DNA of 64,000 nucleotides, from positions 1 to 64,000 of the IMG/VR virus record IMGVR_UViG_3300045988_063132; one strand, written 5' to 3'. Both the position numbers and the translations under genes were made by a program. Below, one piece after another: positions 50,710 to 50,828 of the stretch. The notes under the pieces were generated by a model, which searched no databases, was not told where the DNA came from, and worked only from the letters and a program-made list of their open reading frames with translations. Numbering within the stretch: the first letter of the stretch is position 1; each line of letters starts with the position of its first letter. Source of the stretch: a virus.

Positions 50710-50828
50710 GGTCTCCGTAAGTTATTTTTAAAGTTCAGCATCTCTATTTATAACTGTGAACTATTCTAATAGCATAAAGTAACATTAAAATAACGAGTGG
50801 CAAGTGGGGTTCGAATCCCCGGAGACCA
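50710..50828 (+). ncRNA. over-long tRNA-like element (~119 nt)
   Basis: Canonical T-arm gggg ttcgaat cccc followed by ggagacc. A perfectly complementary ggtctcc lies ~110 nt upstream. Too long for a tRNA, so possibly intron-containing. Confidence 0.3.

What the first reader, a model, noticed from the sequence alone, without database searches (positions are those of the whole stretch)
50710..50828. Over-long tRNA-like element 1: canonical T-arm and 7-bp acceptor complement separated by ~110 nt
gggg ttcgaat cccc followed by ggagacc is a textbook tRNA 3' half. The only complementary acceptor 5' strand, ggtctcc, lies at 50710, giving ~119 nt, which is far longer than any normal tRNA. It could be a tRNA with an intron, a permuted or processed tRNA-like RNA, or a tRNA-derived structured element. 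It also overlaps the annotated start of the downstream 470-aa ORF.
Basis: seen in the sequence. Interest (0 to 1): 0.55.

Follow-up and report, generated by a model that had tools for sequence, protein, structure and literature searches.

The report
Anticodon-less tRNA-like element in crAss-like phage
A gut crAss-like phage keeps, between two replication-module genes, a tRNA-derived RNA that retains only the acceptor stem and T arm, so it most likely serves as a cutting signal or a stable tRNA mimic, not as a tRNA that reads codons.

Summary
TGGTCTCC (50709-50716) pairs perfectly with GGAGACCA (50821-50828), next to a canonical T arm (GGGG-TTCGAAT-CCCC, 50806-50820). The window is a crAss-like phage, 97% identical to cr1_1 (Suoliviridae, Boorivirinae).

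The same intergenic slot in related genera carries 66-nt versions with different acceptor and T-stem sequences that still pair. All 8 acceptor pairs show compensatory changes and 100% of cells are paired. The long-range pairing is therefore selected, not coincidental.

It is not a tRNA:
- It has no D arm and no anticodon loop.
- ARAGORN finds nothing, with or without introns.
- 0 of 2420 internal deletions yield a tRNA.
- Rfam gives no hit.

The extra ~55 nt is a genus-specific expansion of the middle hairpin. Its interior exists as at least three unrelated alleles in genomes whose flanks are 92-99% identical, and it has no conserved structure.

A more distant relative has a near-canonical tRNA in this slot, and others have a plain GC hairpin.

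My best reading is a tRNA-derived "t-element"-like processing signal or stable tRNA-like RNA, comparable to T4 RNAC. The function is inferred, not shown. Interest is moderate.

The parts
50709..50716 (+). Acceptor-stem 5' strand, TGGTCTCC. It starts 7 nt after the TAA stop (50699-50701) of the upstream 167-aa ORF.
   Evidence: All 8 pairs show compensatory changes in relatives.
50717..50720 (+). Junction GTAA between the acceptor stem and the middle hairpin (P2).
   Evidence: Invariant in all window-type sequences.
50721..50728 (+). P2 base stem, 5' strand, GTTATTTT.
   Evidence: RNAalifold consensus pairs it with 50787-50794. One relative has a G-U pair here.
50729..50786 (+). Hypervariable interior of P2 (58 nt here). 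This stretch is what makes the element over-long.
   Evidence: Alleles A/D, B and C are about 50% alike, which means unrelated, while the 600-nt flanks are 92-99% identical. One relative lacks about 20 nt of it. It has no conserved structure and no other copy in the window or the loci held at that point.
50787..50794 (+). P2 base stem, 3' strand, AAAATAAC.
50795..50805 (+). Linker GAG plus TGGCAAGT. TGGCAAGT is identical in every element recovered. Two of the three scans required it; the scan that did not recovered it in all real elements. I infer that it stands in for the D loop at the tRNA elbow.
50806..50820 (+). T arm, GGGG-TTCGAAT-CCCC.
   Evidence: Stem variants CGGG/CCCG, CGGG/CCTG, CGAG/CTCG and GAGG/CCTC all keep pairing.
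50821..50828 (+). Acceptor-stem 3' strand, GGAGACCA.
50829..50829 (+). Unpaired base at the discriminator position (A).
   Evidence: It is A or T in relatives.
50830..50840 (+). 3' trailer CAAGTCTCGAA, conserved in every lineage that has the tRNA-like element. It is unique in the window.

Best explanation
This is a conserved tRNA-derived RNA element that does not decode codons. It lies on the + strand of a crAss-like phage (Suoliviridae, Boorivirinae).

Structure:
- An 8-bp acceptor stem stacks on a 4-bp T stem with a canonical TTCGAAT loop. Together they give the 12-bp acceptor/T minihelix of a tRNA.
- A single middle hairpin (P2) replaces both the D arm and the anticodon arm.
- An 8-nt linker, UGGCAAGU, identical in every member recovered, precedes the T arm.

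In this genus the tip of P2 has expanded by about 40-63 nt of fast-changing, structurally unconstrained sequence. That is why the element is 121 nt long instead of the 66 nt seen in sister genera.

Most likely mechanism (inferred):
1. The element is transcribed within the polycistronic replication-module RNA.
2. The host tRNA-processing enzymes recognise it through its acceptor/T minihelix. RNase P would cut at its 5' end and RNase Z or an equivalent enzyme at its 3' end.
3. Cutting separates the upstream mRNA from the downstream one, which begins 43 nt later, and releases a small stable tRNA-like RNA.

Shown here: the structure, its conservation and covariation, its tRNA ancestry and the loss of decoding features. 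Inferred: cleavage by RNase P and RNase Z, and the punctuation role.

The confidence of 0.5 is for the processing-signal mechanism. That this is a selected, non-decoding, tRNA-derived structured RNA I hold at about 0.9.
For: Structure:
- All 12 acceptor and T pairs are paired in 6 distinct cores, and 9 pairs changed on both sides. When the partner strand is slid by 1-3 columns, only 25-64% of cells pair.
- RNAalifold independently predicts acceptor, P2 and T arm for the 66-nt forms, with 9 compensatory pairs (counts).
- G-U pairs place the RNA on the + strand.

tRNA ancestry:
- The same slot holds an element that passes the Rfam tRNA threshold in L128 (31.1 bits against 29).
- In L129 the slot holds an aberrant tRNA with an oversized anticodon loop.

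Interchangeability:
- Other relatives have a plain GC hairpin with a UUCG loop in this slot.
- A real tRNA-Val sits in the next intergenic gap, 18 nt before the polymerase gene.

The same gene module also carries a Hatchet ribozyme, RAGATH-22, tRNA-Lys and a second tRNA-like element before the primase gene. All are intergenic and on the same strand.

The distance from the element to the next ATG is similar, about 40-45 nt by my count, in the three lineages read.

The T arm matches the GGTTCRANYCC motif that was used to find plant mitochondrial t-elements. Those are cut by RNase P and RNase Z to make mRNA ends (PMC1920247).

The P2 interior is free to vary, with unrelated alleles and a deletion of about 20 nt. 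That fits a role that needs only the minihelix.
Against: - There are no transcript or cleavage data, so RNase P/Z processing is not demonstrated.
- A bare processing signal does not obviously need the identical UGGCAAGU linker, the identical 11-nt trailer or the covarying short P2 hairpin. These point to an extra interaction that remains unidentified.
- Unrelated P2 alleles in near-identical genomes may reflect selection for diversity and not mere lack of constraint.
- Cutting 7 nt after the upstream stop codon would leave that mRNA with no protective 3' structure.
- The covariation rests on only about four or five independent lineages.
- I picked the 5' strands as the best complement within 200-220 nt upstream, which biases the count. 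They sit at the equivalent position just after the stop codon in every lineage read in context (L190 was not).
Confidence: 0.5

Rival explanations
1. The product is what matters. The released tRNA-like RNA acts in trans as a mimic or decoy for proteins that bind the tRNA acceptor/T region. Candidates are tRNA-targeting host defence toxins, the CCA-adding enzyme, EF-Tu and modification enzymes. The variable P2 interior would tune or diversify that interaction. This would parallel the small stable RNAs of the T4 tRNA region.
For: - The linker, the trailer and the covarying short P2 are constrained beyond what a cutting signal needs.
- At least three unrelated P2 alleles sit in genomes with 92-99% identical flanks.
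- T4 RNAC is a 139-nt RNA with a CCGGG-UUCGAAU-CCCGG T arm, an imperfect acceptor-like stem and two long hairpins. Its role is still unknown (PMC3014915).
Against: - There is no anticodon loop, so it cannot act as a decoy for anticodon nucleases.
- The P2 interior has no conserved structure and tolerates a deletion of about 20 nt.
- The inserts show no significant complementarity to anything else in the window or the loci held at that point.
- No partner protein is identifiable. The neighbouring proteins have no Pfam or PHROG hit.
Confidence: 0.2
2. It is a 3'-end structure for the upstream transcript, acting as a terminator or as a block to 3' exonucleases. It happens to derive from a tRNA, and RNase P and RNase Z play no part.
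For: - Relatives have a simple GC-rich hairpin with a UUCG loop in exactly this slot.
- The element starts 7 nt after the stop codon.
- The GC-rich T hairpin is the most stable local structure in an AT-rich region.
Against: - No U tract follows, and the terminator scan reports nothing here.
- A terminator does not need a covarying long-range acceptor stem, a canonical T loop or an identical linker.
Confidence: 0.15
3. It is a functional tRNA carrying an intron or another insertion, or an unconventional decoder or suppressor.
For: - It has a canonical T loop and a perfect acceptor stem.
- Reviews note that many recoded crAss-like phages lack a detectable suppressor tRNA (PMC10136315).
Against: - ARAGORN finds nothing, with or without introns.
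- 0 of 2420 internal deletions give a tRNA, against 790 of 2970 in the control.
- Rfam gives no tRNA hit even at E<=10.
- The insert-free 66-nt relatives also fail the tRNA model. Their hairpin has a 6-nt loop, a 5-nt bulge and no D arm.
- The genome reads well in the standard code, with intact ORFs up to 1495 aa, so no suppressor is needed.
Confidence: 0.03
4. It is a decaying tRNA pseudogene, or the remnant of a tRNA-targeted integration site (attP-like), with no RNA-level function.
For: It descends from a tRNA in this slot, and its central part varies a great deal.
Against: - Compensatory changes keep every acceptor, T and P2 pair intact across lineages.
- The linker and the trailer are identical across genera whose flanking protein is only 55-64% identical.
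- The 23-nt 3' half and the linker-plus-T pattern have no exact copy in one genome for each of 185,579 bacterial and archaeal species, so it is not a copy of a host tRNA end.
Confidence: 0.05

Closest known systems
t-elements of plant mitochondria (tRNA-like processing signals; Hanic-Joyce 1990; Forner et al. 2007, PMC1920247)
   Same: - The T arm matches GGTTCRANYCC and sits next to an acceptor stem, with a non-canonical rest of the cloverleaf.
- It lies between or next to protein genes in a polycistronic context.
- Real tRNAs and plain stem-loops occupy equivalent positions.
- The proposed mechanism is the same: RNase P and RNase Z define the mRNA ends.
   Different: - This element is in a bacteriophage, not an organelle, and there is no sequence homology.
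- Cleavage has not been shown here.
- It has an identical linker and trailer, and in one genus a hypervariable hairpin expansion. Neither is described for t-elements.
Bacteriophage T4 RNAC (species 1 RNA; rnaC), a small stable RNA of the T4 tRNA region
   Same: - It is phage-encoded and over-long (139 nt).
- It has a canonical T arm (CCGGG-UUCGAAU-CCCGG) directly followed by an acceptor-like 3' strand that pairs with the 5' end.
- Long hairpins replace the D and anticodon arms.
- Its function is unknown (PMC3014915).
   Different: - RNAC lies inside a tRNA gene cluster, and its acceptor-like stem is imperfect.
- This element stands alone between protein genes and has one middle hairpin, not two.
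- I did not test homology between the two.
D-arm-lacking (truncated) tRNAs of animal mitochondria
   Same: The three-helix layout is the same: acceptor stem, one central arm and a T arm, in about 66 nt.
   Different: Those are decoders with a 7-nt anticodon loop. Here the central hairpin has a 6-nt loop and a 5-nt bulge, or a 58-nt variable interior, and it scores as no tRNA. This comparison rests on my own knowledge and was not tested.
tRNA-like domain of tmRNA
   Same: It has an acceptor stem and a T arm without an anticodon arm, and a long helix leaves the junction.
   Different: - ARAGORN's tmRNA search is negative.
- The reference sequence has no G3-U70 pair.
- There is no tag reading frame, and at 121 nt it is far too short.
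- The long single-stranded linker is on the 3' side of the central helix, not the 5' side.

Membership tests
Canonical tRNA (Rfam RF00005) | Score at or above the family threshold (29 bits) on the covariance model | tested here: not met
   RF00005 does not match 50600-50950 even at E<=10. The two real tRNAs of the window score 51.7 and 54.4 bits.
Canonical tRNA (Rfam RF00005) | D arm, and an anticodon arm with a 5-bp stem and a 7-nt loop | tested here: not met
   Only one hairpin lies between the acceptor stem and the T arm. It has a 6-nt loop and a 5-nt bulge in the 66-nt forms and a 58-nt unstructured interior here.
Canonical tRNA (Rfam RF00005) | Acceptor stem stacked on a T arm with a T-loop consensus | tested here: met
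   8 + 4 bp with a TTCGAAT loop, supported by covariation.
Intron-containing tRNA | Removing one internal segment restores a recognisable cloverleaf | tested here: not met
   ARAGORN -i0,400 finds nothing. 0 of 2420 deletions of 20-74 nt at any position give a tRNA, against 790 of 2970 for the control tRNA-Val carrying the same insert.
tmRNA | Detected by a tmRNA finder, with a tag reading frame and G3-U70 | tested here: not met
   ARAGORN searches for tRNA and tmRNA together and finds none here. The third pair is G-C in the window, and there is no ATG or reading frame in the insert.
t-element-like tRNA mimic (processing signal) | T arm matching GGTTCRANYCC, plus an acceptor stem, in a non-canonical cloverleaf | tested here: met
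   GGTTCGAATCC at 50808-50818. The acceptor stem covaries. The motif definition comes from PMC1920247.
t-element-like tRNA mimic (processing signal) | The ends of the element coincide with mRNA termini, and RNase P and RNase Z cleave it | not testable with these tools
   No transcript-end or enzymatic data are available.
Phage small stable tRNA-like RNA (T4 RNAC type) | Accumulates as a discrete stable RNA processed from a longer transcript | not testable with these tools
   No expression data. The architecture is similar by folding.
Any described RNA family (Rfam 15) | Match at the gathering threshold | tested here: not met
   No family matches 50709-50840 at gathering. The best permissive hits score about 13-15 bits and cover the T hairpin only.
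Phage attP core copying a host tRNA 3' end | Identity of the 3' half to a host tRNA gene | tested here: not met
   No exact match of the 23-nt 3' half, or of the linker-plus-T pattern, in one genome for each of 185,579 species. Exact matching only; near matches would be missed.

The most novel reading that the evidence does not exclude
The tRNA-like minihelix could be a scaffold that presents the P2 interior as an exchangeable, diversifying specificity cassette. Examples would be a decoy or a guide directed at strain-specific host factors or defences. The unrelated alleles in near-identical genomes would then reflect an arms race and not mere lack of constraint. More broadly, this phage module could cut up its long transcripts with a mixed set of self-cleaving ribozymes, tRNAs and tRNA mimics.
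Probability: 0.08. Interest if true: 0.8.

Novelty: new variant of a known kind. Interest (0 to 1): 0.45.

Why it matters
- crAss-like phages are among the most abundant viruses of the human gut. Their non-coding RNAs and their transcript processing are almost unstudied.
- The element is conserved, supported by covariation and absent from Rfam. It shows a phage tRNA gene losing its decoding parts while selection keeps the acceptor/T minihelix. That gives a concrete candidate for tRNA-style punctuation of phage mRNAs.
- It also warns annotators. tRNA finders miss the element, and a longest-ORF gene call wrongly extends the downstream gene across it.
- The hypervariable hairpin marks a hotspot of sequence turnover that could serve for strain typing or point to an unknown interaction.

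Tried and rejected
- **tRNA finders.** ARAGORN finds nothing at the locus, by default or with introns of 0-400 nt.
- **Intron anywhere.** The exhaustive deletion test with a positive control is negative.
- **Rfam.** The gathering and permissive searches give only sub-threshold hits to the T hairpin.
- **Copies or antisense targets of the inserts.** A search of the window and of all loci held at that point gives only chance matches of 12-13 nt.
- **Repeated motifs.** The trailer CAAGTCTCGAA and the linker TGGCAAGT are not repeated elsewhere in the window.
- **Neighbouring proteins.** They have no Pfam or PHROG hit.
- **Host origin or attP.** No exact match in the bacterial and archaeal genomes.
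- **Stop-codon recoding, which would call for a hidden suppressor.** The genome reads well in the standard code.
- **Promoter and terminator scan.** Nothing at the element.
- **Alternative hairpin.** The 3' acceptor strand can pair with the trailer (GAGAC/GUCUC here). That pairing is 5, 7 and about 4 bp in three lineages while the trailer never changes, so covariation does not support it (read).
- **Covariance model.** I did not build one, because a model of only 12 pairs plus a T loop would mainly find ordinary tRNAs.
- **Literature.** Searches found no description of tRNA-like elements in Crassvirales. One 2026 preprint that mentions "tRNA-like" could not be opened.

Full report
**What the window is.** The region is 97% identical to uncultured crAss-like phage cr1_1 (Crassvirales; Suoliviridae; Boorivirinae; Culoivirus) and 95% identical to cr55_1. 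The finding lies in a 171-nt gap. The gap separates a 167-aa ORF (50198-50701) from a gene that the cr1_1 annotation starts at the ATG corresponding to window 50873. Both genes are on the + strand, in the replication module upstream of the DNA polymerase gene.

**Checking the observation.**
- The acceptor pairing is 8 bp: TGGTCTCC 50709-50716 with GGAGACCA 50821-50828.
- It directly abuts a 4-bp T stem with a TTCGAAT loop (50806-50820).
- The 8-mer occurs three times in 64 kb on both strands, against 0.79 expected, and two of the three are this stem.
- GGTTCGAATCC matches exactly only here.
- The minimum-free-energy fold forms the acceptor stem, the T hairpin and a long AT-rich hairpin. Its z-score is only -1.8 to -2.4, so thermodynamics alone is weak evidence.

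**It is not a tRNA and matches no described RNA family.**
- ARAGORN finds only tRNA-Lys (41902-41972) and tRNA-Val (52251-52323), with or without intron search.
- Rfam gives nothing at gathering and only hits of about 13-15 bits to the T hairpin at E<=10.
- I deleted every internal segment of 20-74 nt and ran ARAGORN on the products. 0 of 2420 were called a tRNA. For tRNA-Val carrying the same 58-nt insert, 790 of 2970 were called.
- The genome reads well in the standard code, so it needs no hidden suppressor.

**Comparative evidence.** I scanned viral and metagenomic contigs with conserved patterns and with the upstream protein. The same slot holds the element in at least four lineages:

| Lineage | Length | Acceptor stem | T stem |
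|---|---|---|---|
| Window type | 102-126 nt | UGGUCUCC/GGAGACCA; variants UGGUCUCU/AGAGACCA and one G-U | GGGG/CCCC or GAGG/CCUC |
| cr50_1 type | 66 nt | GAUCUAUC/GAUAGAUC | CGGG/CCCG |
| Type E (about 90 of the loci fetched, some from the same contig) | 66 nt | GAUUUGUC/GACGAAUC or GACAAAUC | CGGG/CCCG or CCUG |
| L190 | 66 nt | AAUCUGCU/GGCAGAUU | CGAG/CUCG |

- On an alignment of six distinct cores, all 12 pairs are paired in all sequences. All 8 acceptor pairs and one T pair changed on both sides. When the partner strand is slid by 1-3 columns, only 25-64% of cells pair.
- For the 66-nt forms, RNAalifold independently predicts three helices:
  - an acceptor stem of 8 bp;
  - a P2 hairpin with a 4-bp proximal stem, a 5-nt 3' bulge, a 3-bp distal stem and a 6-nt loop UU(A/C)AGU;
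  - a T stem of 4 bp. Nine pairs in all are compensatory.
- G-U pairs fix the RNA to the + strand.
- Three features are identical in every lineage: the linker UGGCAAGU before the T stem, the T loop, and the 11-nt trailer CAAGUCUCGAA after the unpaired base that follows the acceptor stem. Each scan pattern fixed some of these, so part of the identity is by construction. The linker was still recovered in every element found by the scan that did not require it.
- Caveats:
  - The lineages are few.
  - I chose each 5' strand as the best complement upstream.
  - The 5' strands nevertheless lie 6-7 nt after the stop codon in the three lineages read in context, and nearly all pairs are Watson-Crick.

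**Why this copy is over-long.** In the window's genus, P2 consists of a conserved base stem (GUUAUUUU/AAAAUAAC, often extended to 10-11 bp) around an interior that varies strongly.
- Allele A is the one in the window. Allele D is a diverged relative of it, about 80% identical.
- Alleles B and C are unrelated to A, at about 50% identity in a global alignment of AT-rich sequence. The 600 nt on either side are 92-99% identical.
- One metagenomic copy lacks about 20 nt of the interior.
- RNAalifold finds no conserved structure inside it.
- The interiors have no second copy and no significant complement in the window or in the loci held at that point.
It is not an intron.

**A possible rewiring (inference from aligning by eye).**
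- The window's 5' acceptor strand and the bases after it (GGUCUCC-G-UAAGUU) resemble the P2 5' strand plus loop of cr50_1 (CGUCUCC-AU-UAAGUU).
- The 3' acceptor strand, by contrast, sits at the same position in both.
- The window lineage may therefore have lost the old 5' strand and recruited the former P2 strand, with the 3' strand changing to match.
- If so, selection acted on having a closed acceptor/T minihelix, not on any particular sequence.

**Ancestry and interchangeability.** Downstream of the homologous ORF in more distant relatives the slot holds one of the following:
- an element that passes the Rfam tRNA threshold (L128, 31.1 bits against 29);
- an aberrant tRNA with an oversized anticodon loop (L129, which ARAGORN calls a tRNA with a 6-nt intron);
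- longer elements that contain a T arm (L142-L144);
- a different hairpin (L134);
- a plain GC hairpin with a UUCG loop (L108 and others).

The 3' half and the linker-plus-T pattern have no exact copy in one genome for each of 185,579 bacterial and archaeal species. The element is therefore phage-specific and is not a captured host tRNA end.

**Context in the module.** The + strand module (about 34-64 kb) carries these intergenic RNA elements, all on the + strand:
- a Hatchet ribozyme (37796-37895);
- RAGATH-22 (40094-40273);
- tRNA-Lys, 36 nt before the next ATG;
- this element, 43 nt before the next ATG;
- tRNA-Val, 18 nt before the polymerase start as annotated in cr1_1;
- a second over-long tRNA-like element (58752-58866) about 23 nt before the likely primase ATG.

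Element 2 recurs upstream of the primase gene in cr50_1, cr10_1 and cr115_1. Its acceptor and hairpin sequences change there while pairing is kept. Most of these elements are known, or expected, sites of RNA cleavage.

**Mechanism.** The best-supported explanation is a tRNA-derived mimic that host tRNA-processing enzymes recognise through the acceptor/T minihelix. Established knowledge is that RNase P, RNase Z and the CCA-adding enzyme accept minihelix substrates. Cutting would punctuate the polycistronic transcript and release a stable tRNA-like RNA.
- This is what plant mitochondrial t-elements do. They were found through the same GGTTCRANYCC motif (PMC1920247).
- The nearest phage analogue in architecture is T4 RNAC. 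It is 139 nt, with a CCGGG-UUCGAAU-CCCGG T arm, an imperfect acceptor-like stem and two long hairpins. Its role is still unknown (PMC3014915; PMC9697503).
- A pure cutting signal does not explain three things: the identical linker, the identical trailer, and the turnover of P2 alleles. I infer that the linker substitutes for the D loop at the tRNA elbow.
- Those features keep a trans-acting mimic or decoy role alive as the main rival.
- Lower-ranked readings are a terminator or 3'-protective role alone, a functional intron-containing tRNA, a neutral pseudogene and an attP remnant. The reasons are given under the rival explanations.

**Verdict.** The element is real, conserved and undescribed, and it belongs to a known general kind: tRNA-like processing signals and phage tRNA-like stable RNAs. 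Its structure and ancestry are well supported. Its function is inferred. Interest is moderate. It would rise if RNA-end mapping showed tRNA-style punctuation in a crAss-like phage, or if the hypervariable hairpin proved to be under diversifying selection.

Noticed in passing
window 58752-58866 (+): A second over-long tRNA-like element: acceptor GAAGAGT/ACTCTTC and T arm GGCGG-TTCGAGT-CCGCC, 115 nt, about 23 nt before the likely DNA primase ATG. Homologues upstream of the primase gene in cr50_1, cr10_1 and cr115_1 keep the acceptor and hairpin pairing with changed sequence. cr115_1 has a form of only about 60 nt. Neither ARAGORN nor Rfam detects it.
   Followed up: partly
window 58670-58750 (+); L146 590-670: The ~80 nt just upstream of element 2 are relatively GC-rich and nearly identical in cr50_1, although the whole 700-nt stretch is only about 81% identical. 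This may be another structured RNA. Rfam gives no hit at E<=10.
   Followed up: partly
window 46375-48819: A 2.4-kb stretch with stop codons of all three kinds in all six frames and no + strand ORF of 60 aa or more. It is unannotated in cr1_1, cr55_1 and cr50_1, yet 99% identical to cr1_1 and cr55_1 and about 70% identical to cr50_1. Rfam gives no hit at E<=1. It could be a large conserved non-coding region, either a long RNA or a replication origin.
   Followed up: partly
window 37796-37895 and 40094-40273 (+): A Hatchet self-cleaving ribozyme (76.5 bits) and a RAGATH-22 RNA (125.6 bits) lie in intergenic gaps of the same + strand module as the tRNAs and the tRNA-like elements.
   Followed up: no
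window 50804-50872: The mechanical 470-aa ORF starts at GTG 50804, inside the T arm. The real start is almost certainly ATG 50873 (447 aa), as annotated in cr1_1. The overlap is an artefact of taking the longest ORF.
   Followed up: yes
L145 (cr10_1) about 490-520: An extra T-arm copy, GGGGG-TTCGAAT-CCCCC, followed by TCTCAC lies just upstream of the element-2 homologue. This suggests a tandem or partly duplicated tRNA-like element in that genus.
   Followed up: no
window 50821-50836: The 3' acceptor strand can also pair with the identical trailer (GAGAC/GUCUC, loop CAACAA). cr50_1 has an analogous 7-bp alternative with other sequence, and type E only about 4 bp. It is unclear whether this is a switch or coincidence.
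   Followed up: partly
L108, L110, L120, L124 and others, just after the homologous ORF: Relatives whose upstream protein is about 50% identical carry a plain hairpin, G(T/C)GAGCC-TTCG-GGCTC(A/G)C, in the slot where this phage has the tRNA-like element. The hairpin's own stem shows a compensatory change.
   Followed up: no
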